A stretch of 64,000 bases of DNA from a virus (Duplodnaviria > Heunggongvirae > Uroviricota > Caudoviricetes). The DNA lies in IMG/VR virus record IMGVR_UViG_3300045988_004821, one strand, 5' to 3'. The first letter of the stretch is position 1; every line of letters begins with the position of its first letter. The notes below the pieces were generated by a model, which searched no databases, was not told where the DNA came from, and was given only the letters and a program-made list of their open reading frames with translations. This document shows, in pieces, positions 13,014-19,712 of the stretch. Both the position numbers and the translations under genes were made by a program.

Positions 13014-14429
13014 ATGAGCGAATTATTTAAACATGCGCACCTTCATGCAGGTCGAACTGAAAATGGTGCTGTAAACCATACTTCATCAATGTCTGCTCTT
13101 GTGGACTTTTACAAAGCTGCTGGTTCCAGCCGTAGCAATGTAGAAATCTTACCAGACCTGTTCTACAAAGCTTTGCGTGAGGATGTTGATGTTGCAGTTC
13201 GTATTTTACTGCATATGCGAGATGTACGAGAAGGTATGGGTGAGCGTAAAGCCTTCAGAACTGTTTTGCTTCAAGCGATTGAAGACAAAGTTTTAGAACC
13301 TGTACAGGTTCTTCGCATTATGGATAAGATTGCAGAACTTGGTCGTTTTGATGACTTCAAAATCTTCGTAGGTACTCGTTTCGAGACAGATGCCTTCAAA
13401 CATTTAGAAGCAGCATTACTAGACCCTGCAACAGCAGGTTTGGCGGCTAAGTGGTTACCACGAGTCAAACCACGTCATAAGCAGTTTGTAAAACGTTTCT
13501 GCAAGTTTGCCAACTTAAGTGAGAAAGAGTACCGCACACTGTTGTCTGCACTATCTGATACAGTTGAGCAAAAAATCTCTGCTAATGAGTTTGGTAAGAT
13601 TGACTACAGTAAGATTCCTTCACTTGCTGCTGCACGTTACCAAAAACTGTTTAACCGTAAAGATGGAGAACGCTACAAAGCTTACATCGAGTCATTATCA
13701 AAGGGTGAGGCTAAGATTAATGCTGGTGCTGTTTACCCATACGATGTGATTAAATCTGTTAAGTATGGTAATGCAGATGTTGCTAATGAGCAGTGGAAAG
13801 CACTACCAAACTGGATGGCAGAGGGTGAGAACATTTTGTGTATGACTGATGTCTCAAGCTCAATGTCTTGGGTGAATTTCGGTTCAATCACTGCTCTTGA
13901 TATTGGTGTATCTCTTGCACTGTATGTAGCAGAACGCAATACTGGTTGTTTTAAAAATGAGTCAATGGTTTATTCAACAAACCCTCACTTCATCGAACTG
14001 AGTGGTGATTTACGAAACCGTCATCGTCAGGTAATGCGTTATACTGAATATGGTTCAACTAACTTACAAGCAGCTTTTGACCGTATTCTTGAGACAGGTA
14101 AAAGAAACAACTTGACTCAGAAAGATATGCCAAGTAAGCTTATCATCTTCTCCGATATGGAGTTCAATCAGGTTGATGGAGCTAACGGTCGTACAAACTT
14201 TGAAGCAATTCAGAGTAAGTACAAAAAAGCTGGATATGAGATGCCACAACTGGTATTCTGGTACTTAGCAAACCGTAATGGTACTTGCGAAGTATCTGTT
14301 AAGGATAACGGTGTAGCAATGGTATCAGGGTTCTCTCCAGCCACTTTAAAAGCTCTGCTTGGTGGTGAGAAGTTTGACCCAATCAGCGTAATGCTCAAAG
14401 CAGTAATGATTGACCGTTATATCTGGTAA
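13014..14429 (+). CDS. VWA-domain protein with N-terminal helical domain; Ro60 (TROVE-VWA) / DUF2828-like architecture
   Basis: Intact MIDAS motif DVSSSMS in the C-terminal half; N-terminal TENGA motif; 471 aa; sits directly upstream of the tRNA array. Confidence 0.5.
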   Translation: MSELFKHAHLHAGRTENGAVNHTSSMSALVDFYKAAGSSRSNVEILPDLFYKALREDVDVAVRILLHMRDVREGMGERKAFRTVLLQAIEDKVLEPVQVLRIMDKIAELGRFDDFKIFVGTRFETDAFKHLEAALLDPATAGLAAKWLPRVKPRHKQFVKRFCKFANLSEKEYRTLLSALSDTVEQKISANEFGKIDYSKIPSLAAARYQKLFNRKDGERYKAYIESLSKGEAKINAGAVYPYDVIKSVKYGNADVANEQWKALPNWMAEGENILCMTDVSSSMSWVNFGSITALDIGVSLALYVAERNTGCFKNESMVYSTNPHFIELSGDLRNRHRQVMRYTEYGSTNLQAAFDRILETGKRNNLTQKDMPSKLIIFSDMEFNQVDGANGRTNFEAIQSKYKKAGYEMPQLVFWYLANRNGTCEVSVKDNGVAMVSGFSPATLKALLGGEKFDPISVMLKAVMIDRYIW

Positions 14430-14447
14430 AAAGTTTTAAAAAGGGTA

Positions 14448-14476
14448 TTGACAATGTGTTTAATACCCTTTAATAT
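14448..14476 (+). promoter_or_regulatory. sigma70-type promoter (TTGACA-17-TAATAT) upstream of tRNA array
   Basis: Consensus -35, 17-bp spacer, near-consensus -10, A/T-rich upstream tract; a second TTGACA box at 14539. Confidence 0.6.
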
Positions 14477-14594
14477 GTTCTACATAGAAACGAAATGAGA
14501 GCTTTTCTAAGATACTGAAAAATATTTTAAAAAAGTTCTTGACAACCACTAAAAAATAATGTTAAAGTGGTTACATAGAGTTTGAAAAGTTTAT

Positions 14595-14671
14595 CTCTGT
14601 TTAGCTCAGCTTGGTAGAGCGTTCCGTTTGGGGCGGTAAGGCCGGAGGTTCAAGTCCTCCAACAGAGACCA
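14595..14671 (+). tRNA. tRNA-Pro (anticodon TGG)
   Basis: Cloverleaf by eye: acceptor CTCTGTT/AACAGAG, D-arm GCTC..GAGC, T-arm GGAGG-TTCAAGT-CCTCC, encoded CCA; one mismatch in anticodon stem. Confidence 0.6.
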
Positions 14672-14678
14672 AATTAAT

Positions 14679-14756
14679 GTTCCAGTAGACAAAATGGTAA
14701 AGTCACCACTCTTTCAAAGTGGATATTTGAGGGTTCAAATCCCTTCTGGAACGCCA
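14679..14756 (+). tRNA. tRNA-Glu (anticodon TTC)
   Basis: Acceptor GTTCCAG/CTGGAAC, anticodon arm CCACT-CTTTCAA-AGTGG, T-loop TTCAAAT, CCA encoded. Confidence 0.7.
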
Positions 14757-14762
14757 GTTTTG

Positions 14763-14837
14763 ACAGAAGACCAATTACAGCAAACTTAATCTACTCATCT
14801 GAAAGTTAATCGGACAAAGAAGATATTTGGTCTGGTC
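14763..14837 (+). ncRNA. stem-closed spacer element, copy a (AGACCAA..TTGGTCT arms, TTACAGCAA box)
   Basis: One of four copies with conserved ACAGAAGACC..TTACAGCAA 5' end and GGTCTGG 3' end; arm sequence covaries between copies. Confidence 0.4.
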
Positions 14838-14846
14838 ATTAAGAAT

Positions 14847-14923
14847 TGCGGGTATAGAGAAAGGGCGTCTCACATGTCTCATTAGCATGGTATCGGCAGG
14901 TTCGACTCCTGCACCCGCCTCCA
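14847..14923 (+). tRNA. tRNA with CAT anticodon (Met or Ile-lysidine), position 1:72 unpaired
   Basis: Anticodon arm CATGT-CTCATTA-GCATG, T-arm GCAGG-TTCGACT-CCTGC, CCA encoded; T1 opposite C72. Confidence 0.5.
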
Positions 14924-14928
14924 AATTT

Positions 14929-14996
14929 ACAGAAGACCGTTTACAGCAATATTTATTAAATTTTTAGCGGAAAAAATTGAAATATACGGTCTGGTA
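14929..14996 (+). ncRNA. stem-closed spacer element, copy b (AGACCGT..ACGGTCT arms)
   Basis: Same architecture as copy a with compensatory arm change CAA/TTG to CGT/ACG. Confidence 0.4.
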
Positions 14997-15007
14997 ATAC
15001 TAAACAT

Positions 15008-15084
15008 GGTTAGGAAGCACATAAGGTATGTGCGGTCGCCTGTTAAGCGAATGGCACAGGGTTCGAATCCCTGACTAACCGCCA
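15008..15084 (+). tRNA. tRNA-Asn (anticodon GTT)
   Basis: D-arm GCAC..GTGC, anticodon loop CTGTTAA, T-arm CAGGG-TTCGAAT-CCCTG, CCA encoded. Confidence 0.7.
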
Positions 15085-15093
15085 AATTTAAAT

Positions 15094-15181
15094 GTGTCGT
15101 TATCCCGTAGATGGTAGCGGTGGGGACTGTAAATCCCTTGTCATTGAGACTCGGTAGGTTCGACTCCTACACGGCACACCA
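15094..15181 (+). tRNA. tRNA-Tyr (anticodon GTA), long variable arm
   Basis: 88 nt; anticodon arm GGGGA-CTGTAAA-TCCCT; T-arm GTAGG-TTCGACT-CCTAC; CCA encoded. Confidence 0.7.
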
Positions 15182-15186
15182 ATAAA

Positions 15187-15264
15187 GGTTATGTAGTTTA
15201 ATTTGGTTAAAATACTCCCCTGTCACGGGAGATGATGAGGGTTCAAATCCCTTCGTAACCGCCA
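15187..15264 (+). tRNA. tRNA-Asp (anticodon GTC)
   Basis: Anticodon arm CTCCC-CTGTCAC-GGGAG; acceptor GGTTATG/CGTAACC; CCA encoded. Confidence 0.7.
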
Positions 15265-15292
15265 ATTTTGAGAGGGCTATTTAGCCCCTCCC

Positions 15293-15320
15293 TTAAAGGG
15301 TTCTTACGAGTATCCTTTAA
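15293..15320 (+). promoter_or_regulatory. conserved hairpin TTAAAGG-[GTTCTTACGAGTAT]-CCTTTAA
   Basis: Second copy at 18407-18430 has the same 14-nt loop (1-2 changes) and a covarying stem (TAAGG/CCTTA). Confidence 0.45.
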
Positions 15321-15325
15321 AGGAG

Positions 15326-15400
15326 CAGAAGACCAAATACAGCAAGTTACTTAAAATTTCAAGCCAATTTAATTTTGAAAAATTTAAAACTTGGTCTGGC
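15326..15400 (+). ncRNA. stem-closed spacer element, copy c (AGACCAA..TTGGTCT arms)
   Basis: Conserved 5' CAGAAGACC..ACAGCAA and 3' GGTCTGG ends. Confidence 0.4.
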
Positions 15401-15411
15401 TCAACAAATTT

Positions 15412-15545
15412 ACAGAAGACCGTTTACAGCAAAACTTAAACAATCTATTTCTCGGTAAAGAAAAGGCGAAGGTTCGATTCCTTCACTCGGCAGATGTCGA
15501 GTTGGTGTAATGGTAGCACTTAAGATGATAAACAACGGTCTGGTA
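15412..15545 (+). ncRNA. stem-closed element, copy d, containing a circularly permuted tRNA-like module (Y-RNA-like candidate)
   Basis: Outer arms AGACCGTT/AACGGTCT; inside, T-arm GAAGG-TTCGATT-CCTTC, then acceptor-like 7-bp stem ACTCGGC/GTCGAGT closed by loop AGAT, then TG and D-arm GTGT-AATGGTA-GCAC. Confidence 0.45.
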
Positions 15546-15688
15546 ATTATCTTTGTAGATAAGTTATTAAGCTTACCTGTGAGTATGCGACCACAAAGGG
15601 TGAAAGGGTAAATTCTAGATTTAAACCCAAAAAGGCACATCGCTACAGACCTTAAGCAAGTCTGGGTAGCTTATCTACAAAGATAATT
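15545..15688 (+). ncRNA. element bounded by a perfect 19-bp inverted repeat (AATTATCTTTGTAGATAAG / CTTATCTACAAAGATAATT) with 106-nt interior
   Basis: Perfect inverted repeat at 15545-15563 and 15670-15688; interior has a nested hairpin CTACAGAC..GTCTGGGTAG; abuts tRNA-Lys. Confidence 0.35.
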
Positions 15689-15692
15689 TAAT

Positions 15693-15768
15693 GGAAGTGT
15701 AGCAGAATGGTGATGCGGCAGACTTTTAATCTGACAGGCGATGGGTTCGAATCCCTCCACTTCTACCA
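15693..15768 (+). tRNA. tRNA-Lys (anticodon TTT)
   Basis: Acceptor GGAAGTG/CACTTCT, anticodon loop CTTTTAA, T-loop TTCGAAT, CCA encoded; T-stem has a bulge. Confidence 0.6.
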
Positions 15769-15772
15769 ATAT

Positions 15773-15849
15773 GGTTCAGTCGCAGATAAGGTAATGCAAG
15801 GGTCTCATAAGCCCTATGAATGTGGGTTCGATTCCCATCTGAACCTCCA
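15773..15849 (+). tRNA. tRNA with CAT anticodon (Met / Ile-lysidine / initiator-like GGG:CCC anticodon stem)
   Basis: Anticodon arm AGGGT-CTCATAA-GCCCT; acceptor GGTTCAG/CTGAACC; CCA encoded. Confidence 0.6.
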
Positions 15850-15850
15850 A

Positions 15851-15926
15851 GCTGGTATAGTTAAGAAGGTTATAACACTCCCCTGATAAGGGAACATCGG
15901 TGGTTCGATTCCACCTACCAGTACCA
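15851..15926 (+). tRNA. tRNA-Ile (anticodon GAT)
   Basis: D-arm GTTA..TAAC, anticodon loop CTGATAA, T-arm GGTGG-TTCGATT-CCACC, CCA encoded. Confidence 0.7.
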
Positions 15927-15941
15927 ATTTCAATAAAGTTG

Positions 15942-15970
15942 TTGACATTGAGATGTGACTACTTTATAGT
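15942..15970 (+). promoter_or_regulatory. sigma70-type promoter (TTGACA-17-TATAGT) inside tRNA array
   Basis: Consensus -35, 17-bp spacer, TATAGT -10, A/T-rich upstream. Confidence 0.6.
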
Positions 15971-16174
15971 AACCTTAGTTTTCGTTGCGTAGCGTCTATT
16001 TTGCAAATTTAAAATAAATGCAAACGACAATGTTTTTCTGGCAGTAGCTTGATAGGCTAAACACCAGTGAGGTCTTCCAATCCCTCATCAAAGAATTTGG
16101 CGTACTCGCCCACGGTATGATTAATAAGGTGGGCATCTTTAAGGGCTTTCTAAGAGAGTCTTTAAAGATAATTA

Positions 16175-16256
16175 CGGGGCGTATCTCAGCGGTCTTCTAA
16201 ACCGCCGTTAACCGAGTAAGTGGAGTATGCGGGTTCGAGTCCTGCCGCCTCGACCA
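16175..16256 (+). tRNA. atypical tRNA-like element (acceptor/T-arm minihelix; hairpin with TCT in a 7-nt loop where the D-arm should be; possibly degenerate tRNA-Arg)
   Basis: Acceptor CGGGGCG/CGCCTCG, T-arm GCGGG-TTCGAGT-CCTGC, CCA encoded, but no canonical D-arm and no anticodon arm at the expected position. Confidence 0.35.
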
Positions 16257-16399
16257 ATTTAGTTAGCAGATTACTTAGACGACCTTATCGGGTCTTCCTG
16301 TAGGGAGGTGGTCTGTATCTCATGTTTTCCAGAACATGTAAATAATCTGAGAAGGGGCTTTACAGTGTTGAGATAATACGGTAAGCTTCGAATTATAGT

Positions 16400-16482
16400 A
16401 TGGGACGATGTTAAGACTCTAAGGCATGAGCAACGGCTTCCAACACCGTTTCAAAGGGGTTCAACTCCTCCGTCCCATGCCA
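16400..16482 (+). tRNA. tRNA-Trp (anticodon CCA) with extended D region
   Basis: Perfect acceptor ATGGGAC/GTCCCAT, anticodon arm ACGGC-TTCCAAC-ACCGT, T-loop TTCAACT, CCA encoded; D region about 7 nt longer than canonical. Confidence 0.5.
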
Positions 16483-16495
16483 AAGTCTTATTAGG

Positions 16496-16583
16496 GGTAG
16501 GTAGCGGCTAATGGCAGCCAAACAGTCTTGAAAACTGTTGCCACTGTAGAGATACGGTGAGGGTTCGACTCCTTTACTTACCG
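16496..16583 (+). tRNA. tRNA-Ser (anticodon TGA), long variable arm; CCA not encoded
   Basis: Anticodon arm AACAGT-CTTGAAA-ACTGTT; acceptor GGTAGGT/ACTTACC; discriminator G. Confidence 0.65.
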
Positions 16584-16840
16584 CCTAATAAGATTTACAC
16601 CGTCCATGCTTGCTCGCATTTTCGGTTTATCCCTCGTGTATTGTCGTACACACTGATAAAGCACCTAGTAGGTGTCACGGAGAAGAGATAATATCAAGCT
16701 CTCCAAAGGTTCTAGTCACCGGATTAAACAAGACTATGCAAAGACCTTTTTAGGTCTTTTTAGAGGGCTTCTAAGGTTATTACAGCTTGTTGTGGAACCT
16801 TGTTGCTTAGGTTCTTAGAAGTTCTCTAAAAAGATTTAAT

Positions 16841-16918
16841 GGGAGATTGACGGTAATTGGTAAACCTACCATCCTTAGAAGTTGGTGTTTGAGGGTTCGA
16901 ATCCCTTGTCTCCCACCA
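16841..16918 (+). tRNA. tRNA with Leu anticodon TAG but short (class-I) variable region
   Basis: Acceptor GGGAGAT/GTCTCCC, Leu-like D-arm GGT-AATTGGTAA-ACC, anticodon loop CTTAGAA, discriminator A, CCA encoded; 78 nt. Confidence 0.5.
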
Positions 16919-16925
16919 AATTAAT

Positions 16926-17001
16926 GCAGGTGTAGCAAAATGGTTATGCGGCTGACTCTTAATCAGTAAGACGATGGGTTCAATTCCCTCCACCTGTACC
17001 A
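16926..17001 (+). tRNA. tRNA-Lys (anticodon CTT)
   Basis: Anticodon arm GCTGA-CTCTTAA-TCAGT; acceptor GCAGGTG/CACCTGT; CCA encoded. Confidence 0.6.
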
Positions 17002-17007
17002 AACAAT

Positions 17008-17083
17008 GGGGTCATAGTTTATATGGTTAAAATTCGAGTTTTGCAAACTTGGGAACTGAGTTCAATTCTCAGTGACTCCACCA
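17008..17083 (+). tRNA. tRNA-Ala (anticodon TGC)
   Basis: Anticodon arm CGAGT-TTTGCAA-ACTTG; T-arm CTGAG-TTCAATT-CTCAG; CCA encoded. Confidence 0.7.
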
Positions 17084-17089
17084 ATTAGT

Positions 17090-17164
17090 GCATCCATAGT
17101 TTAAACGGGAAAATTACAGTCTTCCAAACTGAGGTTGAGGGTTCGATTCCCTCTGGATGCTCCA
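17090..17164 (+). tRNA. tRNA-Gly (anticodon TCC)
   Basis: Perfect acceptor GCATCCA/TGGATGC; anticodon loop CTTCCAA; T-arm GAGGG-TTCGATT-CCCTC; CCA encoded. Confidence 0.65.
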
Positions 17165-17171
17165 AATTAAT

Positions 17172-17247
17172 GCTCCTATCGTATAATTGGCTATTACGGT
17201 TGCCTTGTAAGTAACTTATCAGGGTTCGAATCCTTGTTGGAGCACCA
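17172..17247 (+). tRNA. tRNA-Thr (anticodon TGT)
   Basis: D-stem CGTA/TACG; anticodon arm GTTGC-CTTGTAA-GTAAC; T-loop TTCGAAT; CCA encoded. Confidence 0.65.
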
Positions 17248-17344
17248 ATTTAGAGGTCAAGTGAAAGACCGCTTTGAGTCAACTGAAGACCGTAACAAAT
17301 CCCACGGAGTTGAGTTAGCGGCACAACTTCAGACCTCTTTTCAC

Positions 17345-17419
17345 ACTCGCTTAGTTTATATGGTAAAACATCACCCTTACAAGATGAAGAAGAAGGTTCA
17401 AGTCCTTTAGTGAGTACCA
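17345..17419 (+). tRNA. tRNA-Val (anticodon TAC)
   Basis: D-stem GTTT/AAAC; anticodon loop CTTACAA; T-arm GAAGG-TTCAAGT-CCTTT; CCA encoded. Confidence 0.65.
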
Positions 17420-17420
17420 T

Positions 17421-17498
17421 GTTCCAGTATCCCAATTGGTAGAGGATGCAAGCTCAAACCTTGTACTAGTGACGGTTCGAATCCGTCTTGGAACACCA
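17421..17498 (+). tRNA. tRNA with Leu anticodon CAA but short (class-I) variable region
   Basis: Leu-like D-arm TCC-CAATTGGTAGA-GGA; anticodon arm GCAAG-CTCAAAC-CTTGT; T-arm GACGG-TTCGAAT-CCGTC; discriminator A; 78 nt. Confidence 0.5.
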
Positions 17499-17503
17499 AT
17501 TTT

Positions 17504-17579
17504 GCAGGATTAGTTCAAATGGATAGAGCAACAGTCTACGAAGCTGTTAATAGGGGTTCGAATCCCTTATCCTGCGCCA
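17504..17579 (+). tRNA. tRNA-Arg (anticodon ACG)
   Basis: Perfect acceptor GCAGGAT/ATCCTGC; anticodon arm ACAGT-CTACGAA-GCTGT; CCA encoded. Confidence 0.7.
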
Positions 17580-17598
17580 ATTTAAAGAGGCTATTTAG

Positions 17599-18156
17599 AT
17601 GAGATATTTGAAGTATGCTTCATGGATTTTCTTAGCTTTGTTAGAGCCATTTGCAGCAATCTTAGCAGTTATCTTAGCACCTTTCGTAGTTCCATTCTAC
17701 AGTGAGAAGAAAGGACATCTGCCTTTCGGGTTCAGATGGATGGAAACTTATGACAACCCAATTGATGGTGATGAAGGTCACGTTAAAAGATGGGCTAATA
17801 TTAGATGGATTGGTAAACTAGGTGTCTACATGCAAAGAGTCGGATGGCTCTGGAGAAACAAAGCTTATAACTTCTCTTACCATGTATTAGGAAGAGATGT
17901 AAAAGATGTTACTAAGTGGAAAGGTAATATCAACGTAAGTTCTGACCCTGAAGATAATCAGACAGGTTATCTCCTAATGTGGAACAGTAATGCTTGGGGA
18001 TTATTCGCTTTTATCCCATCAATTAAAATCTTTGGTAAACAATTCTACTGGAGAATTTATGTTGGATGGAAGCTAAAAAGTGTTGTCCCAGAAGAAAGAG
18101 CATTCTCAAGGGAAAGAGTTATGTTGGCATTCTTTATTCACCCACTAAGAAAGTAA
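17599..18156 (+). CDS. hypothetical membrane protein encoded inside the tRNA array (185 aa)
   Basis: N-terminal hydrophobic stretch WIFLALLEPFAAILAVILAPFVVPF; flanked by tRNA genes. Confidence 0.5.
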   Translation: MRYLKYASWIFLALLEPFAAILAVILAPFVVPFYSEKKGHLPFGFRWMETYDNPIDGDEGHVKRWANIRWIGKLGVYMQRVGWLWRNKAYNFSYHVLGRDVKDVTKWKGNINVSSDPEDNQTGYLLMWNSNAWGLFAFIPSIKIFGKQFYWRIYVGWKLKSVVPEERAFSRERVMLAFFIHPLRK

Positions 18157-18164
18157 AGATTTAA

Positions 18165-18240
18165 AGGGGATTAGTTTACAAGGTTAAAACCTCGGTCTTT
18201 GAAATCGAAGAAGTTGGTTCAATTCCAACATCCCCCGCCA
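18165..18240 (+). tRNA. tRNA-Gln (anticodon TTG)
   Basis: Anticodon arm TCGGT-CTTTGAA-ATCGA; T-arm GTTGG-TTCAATT-CCAAC; CCA encoded; A1 opposite C72. Confidence 0.65.
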
Positions 18241-18242
18241 AT

Positions 18243-18321
18243 GCTCCATTACTCCAATTGGCAGAGAGGCCAGACTTAAAATCTGTGTTATGTATCGGTT
18301 CGAATCCGATATGGAGTACCA
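18243..18321 (+). tRNA. tRNA with Leu anticodon TAA, Leu-like D-arm but short variable region
   Basis: D-arm CTC-CAATTGGCAGA-GAG; anticodon loop CTTAAAA; T-arm ATCGG-TTCGAAT-CCGAT; discriminator A; 79 nt. Confidence 0.55.
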
Positions 18322-18326
18322 AATTT

Positions 18327-18402
18327 AGCGGTATAGCATAACTGGAAATGCAACAGTCTCTGAAGCTGTCCTATTAAGGTTCAAATCCTTATGCCGCTGC
18401 CA
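18327..18402 (+). tRNA. tRNA-Gln (anticodon CTG)
   Basis: D-stem GCAT/ATGC; anticodon arm ACAGT-CTCTGAA-GCTGT; T-arm TAAGG-TTCAAAT-CCTTA; CCA encoded. Confidence 0.6.
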
Positions 18403-18406
18403 CTTC

Positions 18407-18430
18407 TAAGGGTTCTTACGAGAGTCCTTA
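18407..18430 (+). promoter_or_regulatory. conserved hairpin TAAGG-[GTTCTTACGAGAGT]-CCTTA (second copy)
   Basis: Same loop as 15293-15320 with covarying stem. Confidence 0.45.
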
Positions 18431-18433
18431 AAT

Positions 18434-18509
18434 GTGGCCTTATCATAAATGGTAATGACCCATGCTGTGAACATGGTCTATACGGGTTCAAATCCCGTAG
18501 GTCACCCCA
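18434..18509 (+). tRNA. tRNA-His (anticodon GTG)
   Basis: D-stem TCAT/ATGA; perfect anticodon arm CCATG-CTGTGAA-CATGG; T-arm ACGGG-TTCAAAT-CCCGT; no encoded G-1. Confidence 0.7.
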
Positions 18510-18515
18510 ATTTAT

Positions 18516-18591
18516 AGTCCAAGTAGCTTATATGGTTAAAGCGCGTGTCTGAAAAACATGAGAAGAGGGTTCAAATCCCACTGGACTACCA
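18516..18591 (+). tRNA. tRNA-Phe (anticodon GAA)
   Basis: Anticodon arm CGTGT-CTGAAAA-ACATG; T-loop TTCAAAT; CCA encoded. Confidence 0.65.
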
Positions 18592-18607
18592 ATTTCAAAG
18601 GTGCTTA

Positions 18608-19342
18608 ATGAAAGAGATGACAGAACAAGGTAAGGAGATTTTTAATCTCTTAAAAACCGGTAAAGGGTTCTCTAACCCACTTATCACTGGTGCAGCAGTT
18701 CTCGGTGGAACCGTAGCTGCTTCTACATCACTTGTAAGCTCTATTAGTTCTGTAACAGACCCTACAATGAAGGAGAAACTTGTTGCTGCTGGACTTACAA
18801 CAGTCCTTCTAAACAGCTTTACAACAAGCCTTACAAGCACTACAGCAACTACTAAAACTCTGACAGACTACGGTCAAAAGTCTATTGATGAGTTTTCATC
18901 ACGTATGCAGGTAGCAAAGGGGTATTCCAATGTTATGGGTGCAGCAGGAGAACAAGTTGGTTGTACACCATTCAGTGGTATCATGGGTGTTGCTACAGAG
19001 TATGGTCAAAAAGCTATTGACATGATGAACAGTACACTAGATAGTGTTAATGGTGTGTTAAGTGACTTGCAAGATGCTATTGATAAGGGTCTTGATACTG
19101 TTTCTGATTTAGCTAATCAGGCTGTTAGTAAGATTAATGAGGGTATTTCAAAGATTACAGCTTATGCAGATGAAGTTGTGCAGATGATTGAAGAAGAAGC
19201 TGCCCTTATTGCAGAGTACCTTAAAACGAATATCAATGGGTTCTTAGCAGGTATCTTACCAGACTGGTTTGATGATGCCTGTAAAACTGGTGTAATTGAC
19301 ACTATTGCAACACCAGAAATGAAGAGCGCATTACAGAAATAA
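18608..19342 (+). CDS. hypothetical protein with hydrophobic and Ser/Thr-rich N-terminal region (244 aa)
   Basis: Start moved to the ATG at 18608 (SD AAGGTG upstream) because the track start at 18545 overlaps tRNA-Phe. Confidence 0.5.
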   Translation: MKEMTEQGKEIFNLLKTGKGFSNPLITGAAVLGGTVAASTSLVSSISSVTDPTMKEKLVAAGLTTVLLNSFTTSLTSTTATTKTLTDYGQKSIDEFSSRMQVAKGYSNVMGAAGEQVGCTPFSGIMGVATEYGQKAIDMMNSTLDSVNGVLSDLQDAIDKGLDTVSDLANQAVSKINEGISKITAYADEVVQMIEEEAALIAEYLKTNINGFLAGILPDWFDDACKTGVIDTIATPEMKSALQK

Positions 19343-19343
19343 T

Positions 19344-19436
19344 GGAAGATTAACCCTAAAAGGTAAGGGAGCAGTTTGCTAAACTGCCAGTAGCTGAGAA
19401 ATCGGTGTACCAGTTCAAGTCTGGTATCTTCCTCCA
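19344..19436 (+). tRNA. tRNA-Ser (anticodon GCT), long variable arm
   Basis: 93 nt; perfect anticodon arm GCAGT-TTGCTAA-ACTGC; T-arm ACCAG-TTCAAGT-CTGGT; CCA encoded. Confidence 0.7.
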
Positions 19437-19440
19437 ATTT

Positions 19441-19516
19441 GAATCCGTGACAGAAATGGCTATGTGCCTGTCTGCAAAACAGGTTTATAAGGGTTCGAGT
19501 CCCTTCGGATTCTCCA
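19441..19516 (+). tRNA. tRNA-Cys (anticodon GCA)
   Basis: Perfect acceptor GAATCCG/CGGATTC and anticodon arm CCTGT-CTGCAAA-ACAGG; CCA encoded. Confidence 0.7.
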
Positions 19517-19553
19517 AGTTATTTTACTCTCTCTCAATTAAAATAATAATAAT

Positions 19554-19613
19554 GCCCTGCTATCAGTATTCTTCCTTTCGCTACCGAAGAGTATTTTTAG
19601 ACAGGGCTTTTTT
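19554..19613 (+). terminator. rho-independent terminator closing the tRNA array (GCCCTG..CAGGGC + TTTTTT)
   Basis: Long GC-clamped hairpin followed by T6. Confidence 0.65.
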
Positions 19614-19688
19614 ACAGAGTTATACTTTATAAGAAGCCTTATACAGTATGTCTCTGACGTACATTGTGGTTTCTCCTTGACGGTCTCT

Positions 19689-19712
19689 GTACCGTCTTTT
19701 TTAAGGGGAAAC
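19689..19712 (+). terminator. second terminator-like hairpin (GACGGT-CTCTGT-ACCGTC + TTTTTT)
   Basis: 6-bp stem followed by T6, upstream of the packaging genes. Confidence 0.55.

What the first reader, a model, noticed from the sequence alone, without database searches (positions are those of the whole stretch)
16841..18321. Three Leu-anticodon tRNAs (TAG, CAA, TAA) that lack the long variable arm
All three have a Leu-type D-arm (3-bp stem with an AATTGGTAGA-like loop) and discriminator A73, but are only 78-79 nt with a 6-7 nt variable region. Bacterial tRNA-Leu is normally class II with a long variable arm, and the Ser and Tyr tRNAs in this same array do have long arms. Either this phage encodes unusual compact tRNA-Leu or these tRNAs have a different identity.
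Basis: partly seen in the sequence, partly recalled or inferred. Interest (0 to 1): 0.55.

Follow-up and report, generated by a model that had tools for sequence, protein, structure and literature searches.

The report
Short-armed leucine tRNAs in a coliphage
This Felix O1-like E. coli phage carries three real leucine tRNA genes that lack the long extra arm of normal bacterial leucine tRNAs; this short form proves to be common in phages and in Actinobacteria, but nobody has shown that the E. coli charging enzyme accepts it.

Summary
ARAGORN and the Rfam tRNA model both call three tRNA-Leu genes (UAG, CAA, UAA) at the stated coordinates. Each is 75-76 nt plus an encoded CCA, with a variable region of 5, 6 and 7 nt. 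The Tyr and both Ser tRNAs in the same array keep long arms.

The window is a Felixounavirus. All three tRNAs keep the elements E. coli LeuRS is reported to need: A73, U8:A14, A15:U48, and G18G19/A20a in an E. coli-like 11-nt D-loop (one nucleotide longer in UAG). Their anticodons match AT-rich Leu codons that the phage uses more than E. coli does.

They are not a one-off. The same type I tRNA-Leu occurs in T5-like, PVP-SE1, Erwinia, Pectobacterium, Streptomyces, Aeromonas, Xanthomonas and Lactobacillus phages. It also occurs in at least 120 IMG/VR loci and as a chromosomal gene in many Actinomycetota.

Type I tRNA-Leu has been described once, in Streptomyces coelicolor (Fan et al. 2019). That paper reports that E. 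coli LeuRS did not charge the Streptomyces tRNA, which has C48 rather than U48. Leucine identity is therefore well supported by sequence, but charging by the enterobacterial enzyme is inferred and untested. I rate it a new member of a known kind, of moderate interest.

The parts
16841..16918 (+). Type I (short variable loop) tRNA-Leu(UAG). The body is 75 nt plus an encoded CCA, with variable region TGTTT and A73. The D region is irregular, one nucleotide longer than in the other two. There is a U30.U40 mismatch in the anticodon stem, and A37 instead of the host's G37.
   Evidence: ARAGORN. RF00005 scores 38.9 bits. 355 phage records match, including T5-like and PVP-SE1 phages at 82-85% identity. 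The allele in phages momo and VpaE1_ev78 has a fully compensated, different anticodon stem, tctcg/cgaga versus ccatc/gttgg.
17421..17498 (+). Type I tRNA-Leu(CAA). The body is 75 nt plus CCA, with a 3-bp D-stem (TCC/GGA), D-loop CAATTGGTAGA, variable region ACTAGT and A73.
   Evidence: ARAGORN. RF00005 scores 46.1 bits. 299 phage records match. VpaE1_ev78 carries a compensated T-stem change, GACGG/CCGTC to GATGG/CCATC. There is no match in 5,426 complete E. coli genomes.
18243..18321 (+). Type I tRNA-Leu(UAA). The body is 76 nt plus CCA, with G1.U72, a 3-bp D-stem (CTC/GAG), D-loop CAATTGGCAGA, variable region GTTATGT and A73.
   Evidence: ARAGORN. RF00005 scores 47.5 bits. 264 phage records match, 216 of them at 99% identity or more.
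14595..19516 (+). The surrounding array of 25 tRNA genes, which gives the context. Tyr (15094-15181) and Ser (16496-16585, 19344-19436) are the internal class II controls that keep long variable arms. The window holds no class II tRNA-Leu.
   Evidence: ARAGORN. Single-sequence folds of Tyr and Ser show the extra hairpin. The array is 96-98% identical to Felixounavirus genomes, where these genes are annotated as tRNAs.

Best explanation
The three genes are functional phage-encoded leucine isoacceptors of the type I (class I-like, short variable loop) kind.

Shown:
- They fold as standard cloverleaves with a 5-7 nt variable region.
- They carry anticodons UAG, CAA and UAA.
- They retain A73, U8:A14, the A15:U48 Levitt pair, G18G19 and A20a. 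In CAA and UAA the D-loop has the same length and nearly the same sequence as in E. coli tRNA-Leu.
- They belong to a large, covarying family of type I tRNA-Leu found in many unrelated phages and in actinobacterial chromosomes.

Inferred:
- The host LeuRS charges them with leucine. The enterobacterial enzyme reads the discriminator and the D/T-loop elbow rather than the anticodon or the long arm.
- They then decode UUA/UUG and CUA (and other CUN) codons, which this 39% G+C phage uses far more than E. coli does.

One pattern fits bacterial identity rules: Leu has lost the arm while Ser and Tyr in the same arrays never do. SerRS needs the long arm (PMC9976931), and bacterial TyrRS binds it (from my own knowledge, not read here). 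For E. coli LeuRS the arm is dispensable (PMC9976931).
For: Structure and identity:
- ARAGORN and RF00005 agree.
- The D-loop motif AAYYGGYAKA occurs in 26 of 32 Leu tRNAs, including all E. coli ones, against 3 of roughly 200 non-Leu tRNAs.
- In 126 distinct 74-nt viral type I tRNA-Leu, the class I cloverleaf is 98.4% canonically paired, with 90 pair types over 20 pairs. Controls with the 3' partner shifted give 43-46%. RNAalifold predicts the same structure.
- U48, A73 and U8 are invariant in that set, and none of them was part of the search pattern.
- A15+U48 occurs in 98% of type I Leu against 7-64% of other isotypes.
- All 132 compact IMG/VR matches have Leu anticodons.

Function:
- Compensatory changes occur between alleles within the genus.
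- The genes are conserved in 264-355 phage genomes.
- Leu codon use in the window is UUA 25.7%, CUA 11.4% and CUG 15.2%. E. coli is about 13%, 4% and 50%; those figures are established knowledge, not computed here.

Literature:
- In E. coli, A73, A15-U48, G18G19 and A20a are essential. The long arm and the anticodon are not, and truncated tRNA-Leu lacking both arms remain active (review PMC9976931).
- Chromosomal type I tRNA-Leu is a genuine leucine acceptor in S. coelicolor (PMC6614811).
- M. tuberculosis has five tRNA-Leu, and only tRNA-Leu-2, -3 and -5 are described as having long loops (PMC11541572).
Against: - No aminoacylation or expression data were found for any phage type I tRNA-Leu.
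- The one published cross-test is negative. E. coli LeuRS did not leucylate the S. coelicolor type I tRNA-Leu(CAA), and the authors describe EcLeuRS as charging only type II (PMC6614811). That tRNA has C48 (variable loop ACAGC), whereas the phage tRNAs have U48. The result may therefore not transfer, but this is my inference.
- Single-sequence MFE folds do not recover the cloverleaf, with z-scores of only -1.1 to -2.1. This is common for unmodified tRNA sequences.
- The UAG tRNA has an irregular D-arm, a U.U mismatch in the anticodon stem and the lowest CM score.
Confidence: 0.78

Rival explanations
1. These are leucine tRNAs as above, but the arm was lost as a counter-defence adaptation rather than through relaxed constraint. 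Without a variable arm, the phage copies would escape host nucleases or toxins that recognise or cut the long arm of class II tRNAs, and would keep Leu decoding going when host tRNA-Leu is attacked. This does not exclude the main explanation; it is a different account of why the form exists.
For: [quoted passage not shown] - Type I tRNA-Leu is enriched in viral sequence: 26 of 120 IMG/VR loci holding a Leu-type D-loop tRNA are of this type. It recurs in three unrelated families of enterobacterial phages, whose host genomes lack it.
- The phage UAG tRNA also differs from host leuW in the anticodon loop, with A37 instead of G37 and C32 instead of U32.
Against: - I found no defence system that targets the variable arm of tRNA-Leu.
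- The bacterial Schlafen studied so far cuts tRNA-Lys and T5 tRNA-Ala in the anticodon arm, not class II tRNAs specifically (PMC13056530).
- Actinobacteria use type I tRNA-Leu as housekeeping genes, so the form does not need a defence rationale.
Confidence: 0.2
2. The tRNAs are made but are not, or only poorly, charged by enterobacterial LeuRS. They would act outside decoding, for example as decoys or sponges for tRNA-binding host factors or as regulators.
For: - EcLeuRS failed on a heterologous type I tRNA-Leu and is described as type II-only (PMC6614811).
- The UAG tRNA has a non-standard D-arm and a U.U mismatch in the anticodon stem.
Against: - A73, U48 and A15 are invariant, which is what selection by LeuRS would maintain.
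- All four helices covary, including the anticodon stem.
- The anticodon set complements the phage's codon bias.
- These are the phage's only Leu tRNAs, sitting in an otherwise ordinary near-complete decoding set.
- Arm-less E. coli tRNA-Leu variants are reported to remain active (PMC9976931).
Confidence: 0.1
3. Despite their Leu anticodons, the tRNAs are charged with a different amino acid, giving a recoding or identity switch.
For: Only the formal point that a class I body with A73 is shared with several other isoacceptor families (Ala, Ile, Lys, Met, Phe, Pro, Thr, Val).
Against: - There is no G3:U70. Positions 3:70 are G-C, U-A and U-A.
- The anticodons UAG, CAA and UAA do not match the anticodon determinants of the anticodon-reading synthetases.
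- The D-loop and A15:U48 signature is specific to Leu.
- The homologous type I tRNA in S. coelicolor accepts leucine (PMC6614811).
Confidence: 0.03

Closest known systems
Type I tRNA-Leu(CAA) of Streptomyces coelicolor (Fan et al., NAR 2019, PMC6614811), with related chromosomal type I tRNA-Leu of other Actinomycetota
   Same: It is a bacterial-type tRNA-Leu with a 5-nt variable loop, A73 and U8:A14. Actinobacterial relatives share the 3-bp D-stem and the cCAATTGGyAGAgg D-arm with the window's CAA and UAA tRNAs. It coexists with class II Ser and Tyr tRNAs.
   Different: It is chromosomal and housekeeping, with a LeuRS shown to accept it through an adapted leucine-specific domain. The Sco tRNA has C48, and ScoLeuRS does not use A73. 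The phage tRNAs have U48 and A15, variable regions of 5-7 nt, and must work with an enterobacterial LeuRS that failed on the Sco tRNA.
E. coli class II tRNA-Leu isoacceptors leuW (UAG), leuX (CAA) and leuZ (UAA)
   Same: They carry the same anticodons, A73, A15:U48 and G1.U72 (in leuZ and the phage UAA tRNA). The 11-nt D-loop is nearly the same: gAATTGGTAGA or aAATyGGTAGA in the host against cAATTGGyAGA in the phage.
   Different: The host tRNAs have a 13-15 nt variable arm with a hairpin and are 85-87 nt long. Host leuW has G37 and U32, whereas the phage UAG tRNA has A37 and C32.
Animal mitochondrial tRNA-Leu(UUR) and tRNA-Leu(CUN)
   Same: These are leucine tRNAs without a long variable arm, whose identity rests on A73 and A14 (PMC9976931).
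   Different: They are organellar, charged by a dedicated mitochondrial LeuRS, and have degenerate elbows and a floppy anticodon arm. The phage tRNAs have a canonical T-loop (GTTCGAAT) and G18G19.
Minimalist E. coli tRNA-Leu lacking the variable and anticodon arms (Larkin et al. 2002, as summarised in PMC9976931)
   Same: It shows that EcLeuRS can charge a tRNA-Leu without the long arm, provided A73 and the D/T-loop interactions are intact. The phage tRNAs keep exactly those features.
   Different: These are engineered deletions of a host tRNA, not natural genes. I did not have the efficiencies relative to wild type, because the paper itself could not be read.
Phage tRNAs that evade tRNA-targeting defences, such as T5 tRNA-Tyr against retron-Eco7 and Septu
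   Same: These are phage copies of a class II tRNA that differ from the host copy in the variable region. They are encoded in the same kind of tRNA array and in some of the same phage families.
   Different: T5 tRNA-Tyr keeps a long but altered arm (91 nt in SP15), and its protective role has been shown experimentally. No such role has been shown for tRNA-Leu.

Membership tests
tRNA (Rfam RF00005) | A cloverleaf that scores at or above the gathering threshold of 29 bits | tested here: met
   The scores are 38.9, 46.1 and 47.5 bits over the full-length model 1-71. ARAGORN also calls all three.
Leucine isoacceptor for E. coli-type LeuRS | Discriminator A73 | tested here: met
   All three have A immediately before the encoded CCA. 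A73 is present in 126 of 126 viral type I tRNA-Leu.
Leucine isoacceptor for E. coli-type LeuRS | The A15:U48 Levitt pair and the U8:A14 pair | tested here: met
   U8, A14 and A15 are present, and the last variable nucleotide is U in all three. All are invariant in the 126-sequence set; A14 and A15 were fixed by the search pattern, but U8 and U48 were not. A15+U48 occurs in 98% of type I Leu against 7-64% of other isotypes.
Leucine isoacceptor for E. coli-type LeuRS | G18G19 and A20a placed in an 11-nt D-loop on a 3-bp D-stem | tested here: met
   CAA has CAATTGGTAGA and UAA has CAATTGGCAGA, against gAATTGGTAGA in E. coli. The UAG tRNA has the same AATTGGTAA core, but its D region is one nucleotide longer and its pairing register is ambiguous.
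Leucine isoacceptor for E. coli-type LeuRS | Leucylation by LeuRS | not testable with these tools
   This needs biochemistry. The only related published test, EcLeuRS on S. coelicolor type I tRNA-Leu(CAA), was negative (PMC6614811).
Class II (type II) tRNA | A long variable arm of more than 10 nt forming a hairpin | tested here: not met
   The variable regions are 5, 6 and 7 nt. Neither ARAGORN nor the covariance model produces an extra arm. In IMG/VR the gap lengths are bimodal, 16-18 against 20-29, and these tRNAs fall in the short mode.
Type I tRNA-Leu (as defined by Fan et al. 2019) | A Leu anticodon on a class I body whose variable loop is at least 5 nt including nucleotide 48 | tested here: met
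   The anticodons are UAG, CAA and UAA, and the variable regions are 5-7 nt ending in U48. Five nucleotides is the minimum length for good activity in the Sco system.
Type I tRNA-Leu (as defined by Fan et al. 2019) | A cognate LeuRS able to charge type I substrates (in S. coelicolor, an adapted leucine-specific domain) | not tested
   The host LeuRS is outside the window. The literature describes EcLeuRS as type II-only for the Sco substrate. I did not scan the window's ORFs for a synthetase.

The most novel reading that the evidence does not exclude
Enterobacterial LeuRS does charge natural type I tRNA-Leu efficiently when A15:U48 and A73 are present. That would overturn the published view that it handles only type II.

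In addition, loss of the arm in phage tRNA-Leu would be a selected trait of a phage-borne lineage exchanged across phage families. It would give phages Leu decoders that are invisible to host factors which recognise or cut the class II arm. That lineage may share ancestry with the chromosomal type I tRNA-Leu of Actinomycetota.
Probability: 0.2. Interest if true: 0.7.

Novelty: new member of a known kind. Interest (0 to 1): 0.5.

Why it matters
[quoted passage not shown] The one paper on a bacterial exception treats it as a Streptomyces rarity and reports that E. coli LeuRS cannot use it (PMC6614811).

The data here show the arm-less form is common:
- It is found in phages of Proteobacteria, Firmicutes and Actinobacteria.
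- It makes up about a fifth of viral loci that carry a Leu-type D-loop tRNA.
- It is chromosomal across Actinomycetota.
- Three families of E. coli and Salmonella phages rely on it for some or all of their own Leu tRNAs.

This provides natural substrates to test what LeuRS really needs. It acts as a natural experiment that matches known identity rules, since Leu loses the arm while Ser and Tyr never do. It also gives a concrete hypothesis about evasion of tRNA-targeting defences.

On the practical side, length-based or class II-based filters would mis-flag these genes. Several GenBank records label the UAG gene 'tRNA-OTHER' or 'pseudo'.

Tried and rejected
- Single-sequence MFE folding of the three tRNAs gave non-cloverleaf structures with weak z-scores. 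I rejected it as uninformative and used the covariance model and comparative analysis instead.
- The Rfam register for Leu(UAG) starts at 16842, deletes a base in the 3' acceptor strand and makes C the discriminator. I rejected it in favour of ARAGORN's 7-bp acceptor with A73 and CCA, which matches the homologues.
- A MAFFT alignment of 181 compact sequences was gappy in the anticodon arm. I replaced it with the ungapped 74-nt subset.
- Seven of the ten literature searches looked for a description of arm-less tRNA-Leu in phages and found none. One search call failed on term length. Larkin et al. 2002 could not be read.
- I checked the bacterial Schlafen paper for class II-specific cleavage. 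Its targets are tRNA-Lys and T5 tRNA-Ala, so it gives no support.
- I looked for the CAA tRNA in 5,426 complete E. coli genomes and found no match, so it is neither a host nor a prophage gene there.
- Pseudogene or chance match was considered and rejected on conservation and covariation.
- Global identity comparisons between type I and type II tRNAs are dominated by the length difference. I did not use them to infer ancestry.
Full report
**What the window is**

The tRNA region (14400-19700) is 96-98% identical over its full length to many Felixounavirus genomes: VpaE1, momo, wV8, Alf5 and Felix O1 relatives that infect E. coli, Salmonella and Shigella. In those records the three genes in question are annotated tRNA-Leu, and occasionally 'tRNA-OTHER' or 'pseudo'.

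**Checking the observation**

ARAGORN finds 25 tRNA genes on the + strand between 14595 and 19516. They include Leu(tag) at 16841-16918, Leu(caa) at 17421-17498 and Leu(taa) at 18243-18321. The Rfam tRNA covariance model matches all three above its gathering score (38.9, 46.1 and 47.5 bits). It puts the anticodon in the same place and models only a few inserted bases in the variable region.

The stated lengths of 78-79 nt include an encoded CCA, so the tRNA bodies are 75, 75 and 76 nt. The variable regions are TGTTT, ACTAGT and GTTATGT, that is 5, 6 and 7 nt. All three have A73.

CAA and UAA have a 3-bp D-stem and an 11-nt loop, CAATTGGTAGA and CAATTGGCAGA. The UAG tRNA has the same AATTGGTAA core but one extra base in the D region, and the two programs pair it differently. 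Tyr (88 nt) and the two Ser tRNAs (90 and 93 nt) in the same array have clear extra hairpins.

**Are they really leucine tRNAs?**

I fetched the five E. coli K-12 tRNA-Leu species. Their D-loops are gAATTGGTAGA, aAATTGGTAGA or gAATCGGTAGA on a 3-bp stem, with A73 and a variable arm of 13-15 nt ending in U48. Apart from the arm, the phage tRNAs keep this signature.

- Across 245 tRNAs from the window, nine phage loci and E. coli, the motif AAYYGGYAKA occurs in 26 of 32 Leu tRNAs and in 3 of roughly 200 others.
- According to the 2023 identity review, E. coli LeuRS depends on A73, the A15-U48 pair, G18G19 and A20a. It does not depend on the anticodon or the long arm, and variants lacking both arms remain active (PMC9976931).
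- None of the three has G3:U70, and no other identity signature stands out.
- Within the genus, the UAG gene exists as two alleles whose anticodon stems differ at every pair yet stay paired (ccatc/gttgg against tctcg/cgaga). The CAA gene shows a compensated T-stem change.

These are genes under selection for tRNA structure.

**How widespread is the form?**

BLAST of each tRNA against 50,697 phage records gave 355, 299 and 264 records. The UAG tRNA matches T5-like Demerecviridae and PVP-SE1 at 82-85% identity. The CAA tRNA matches Erwinia Ounavirinae and Streptomyces phages. The UAA tRNA matches an Aeromonas and a Lactobacillus phage.

ARAGORN on the fetched loci gave:

| Phage | tRNA-Leu found |
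|---|---|
| T5-like SP15 | taa and tag, both 77 nt with CCA |
| PVP-SE1 | tag short (77 nt), taa long (86 nt) |
| Erwinia Hena2 | three short |
| Pectobacterium Wc4-1 | tag short, taa long |
| Streptomyces Vorvolakos | tag, 75 nt |
| Aeromonas AhP_Mru1 | taa, 77 nt |
| Xanthomonas X1 | cag short, tag long |
| Lactobacillus LpeD | three short |

In every array, Ser and Tyr are long.

In that 1.03 Mb, ARAGORN finds 212 tRNA-Leu, of which 173 have a variable region of 7 nt or less. All 96 Ser and all 41 Tyr tRNAs are long.

When the spacing was opened to both forms, 26 of 120 loci held the short form. The spacing is bimodal, 16-18 against 20-29 nt. All 132 short matches carry Leu anticodons, although the Phe anticodons GAA and AAA were allowed.

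**Comparative structure**

I took 126 distinct viral type I tRNA-Leu of exactly 74 nt and laid them on the class I cloverleaf.

- 98.4% of cells are canonical pairs, with 90 pair types over 20 pairs. Sliding the 3' partner gives 43-46%.
- RNAalifold returns the same structure.
- U8, U48 and A73 are invariant, and none of them was in the search pattern.
- A15+U48 occurs in 98% of type I Leu against 7-64% of other class I isotypes in the same loci.

**Cellular genomes and the literature**

- 88 of the 120 loci hold a single tRNA: 56 taa, 21 caa, 10 tag and 1 cag.
- The taa gene is syntenic with a Ppx/GppA phosphatase gene in at least 16 loci, so it is a chromosomal housekeeping gene.

This led to the key paper, Fan et al. 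2019 (PMC6614811). S. coelicolor has one type I tRNA-Leu(CAA), which its single LeuRS charges. E. coli LeuRS did not charge it, and EcLeuRS is described as type II-only. Its variable loop is ACAGC, so position 48 is C.

M. tuberculosis has five tRNA-Leu, of which only tRNA-Leu-2, -3 and -5 are described as having long loops (PMC11541572).

No paper in the searchable library describes the type I form in phages. The 2023 review states that tRNA-Leu is long-armed everywhere except animal mitochondria.

**How it most likely works**

Shown: the structure, the identity-element content, the conservation and covariation, the family membership, and the codon context.

Inferred: charging by host LeuRS and use in decoding.

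Leu codon use in 44 ORFs of 150 aa or more in the window is UUA 25.7%, CUU 27.7%, CUG 15.2%, UUG 13.5%, CUA 11.4% and CUC 6.5%. E. coli is CUG-dominated (established knowledge, not computed here). So the UAA, CAA and UAG anticodons cover the codons for which the phage's demand most exceeds the host's supply.

Leu loses the arm while Ser and Tyr never do. That is what one expects if a phage tRNA retains only what the host synthetase reads: SerRS measures the long arm, bacterial TyrRS binds it (my own knowledge), and E. coli LeuRS does not require it.

The main uncertainty is the negative EcLeuRS result with the Streptomyces tRNA. The phage tRNAs differ from that substrate at position 48 (U rather than C), an element reported as essential for E. 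coli LeuRS. That offers a plausible reason for the discrepancy, but it remains untested.

**Why the arm was lost**

Relaxed constraint is sufficient as an explanation. A counter-defence role is conceivable. [quoted passage not shown] MenT3 reads the Ser variable loop. However, I found no system that targets the tRNA-Leu arm, and the bacterial Schlafen studied is not class II-specific. The CAA tRNA is absent from 5,426 complete E. coli genomes.

**Verdict**

These are genuine type I tRNA-Leu genes: a new, phage-borne and widespread set of members of a kind characterised once in Streptomyces. The leucine assignment is well supported by sequence evidence. Charging by the enterobacterial enzyme is the step that still needs an experiment.

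Noticed in passing
window 15405-15552 (+): A conserved, unannotated structured element that looks like a circularly permuted tRNA. A T-arm (GAAGG-TTCGATT-CCTTC) and a 3' acceptor strand come first, then a 4-nt cap, then a 5' acceptor strand and a D-arm. The whole is enclosed by a long helix (AGACCGTT/AACGGTCT plus TTAC/GTAA). It is present in 251 phage records of Felixounavirus, Suspvirus and Mooglevirus at 74-100% identity. The acceptor-like helix shows compensatory changes across five genomes. In phage Michonne the 3' strand is followed by GCCA. No Rfam family matches it. ARAGORN does not call it.
   Followed up: partly
window 14764-14840, 14930-14998, 15326-15400, 15413-15546 (+): Four copies of an inter-tRNA unit that begins CAGAAGACCnnTTACAGCAA and ends nnGGTCTGG. 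The closing helix (AGACCnnn/nnnGGTCT) varies in a compensated way between copies. The fourth copy encloses the permuted tRNA-like element; the other three enclose AT-rich sequence. Function unknown; it could be a processing signal or a small mobile or stable RNA.
   Followed up: partly
window 16175-16253 and 16395-16487 (+): Two tRNA-like sequences that ARAGORN does not call. The first scores 31.7 bits with RF00005 and has a CTTCTAA loop (anticodon TCT?) but a rudimentary D region. The second has a 7-bp acceptor (ATGGGAC/GTCCCAT) followed by G-CCA and a 9-nt loop containing CCA. VpaE1_ev78 has a 71-nt tRNA-Trp(cca) call and an inserted endonuclease gene in this part of the array.
   Followed up: no
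window 16841-16918; homologues in L002, L003, L005: The U30.U40 mismatch in the anticodon stem of Leu(UAG) is conserved in the Felix-like, T5-like, PVP-SE1 and Pectobacterium versions, while the flanking pairs covary. This tRNA has A37 where E. coli leuW has G37, the m1G37 site. Across the data sets, type I NAG-anticodon tRNA-Leu have A37 in about 60% of cases, against 28% for viral type II.
   Followed up: partly
genome loci L230-L349 (for example L234, L236, L241, L268): Chromosomal type I tRNA-Leu, mostly UAA but also CAA and UAG, occurs in many Actinomycetota: Nocardia, Rhodococcus, Gordonia, Mycobacterium, Corynebacterium, Arthrobacter, Bifidobacterium and Rothia. The UAA gene sits next to a Ppx/GppA phosphatase gene. 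This is much broader than the single Streptomyces case in the literature. Sixteen of the 120 loci, mostly MAG contigs, hold arrays of 5-26 tRNAs and may be phage or prophage DNA.
   Followed up: partly
window 15868-16173 (+): Weak matches below threshold to permuted tmRNA (RF04321, 29.2 bits against a gathering score of 47) and to tmRNA (RF00023, 16 bits), in the gap after tRNA-Ile. Probably chance or tRNA-like fragments.
   Followed up: no
window 17600-18156 and 18609-19342 (+): Two protein-coding genes are embedded in the tRNA array: a conserved phage protein and a putative membrane protein, as annotated in phage momo. A segment of the first (window about 17653-17892) also matches T4-like Klebsiella, Enterobacter and Escherichia phage genomes at about 70% DNA identity.
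   Followed up: no
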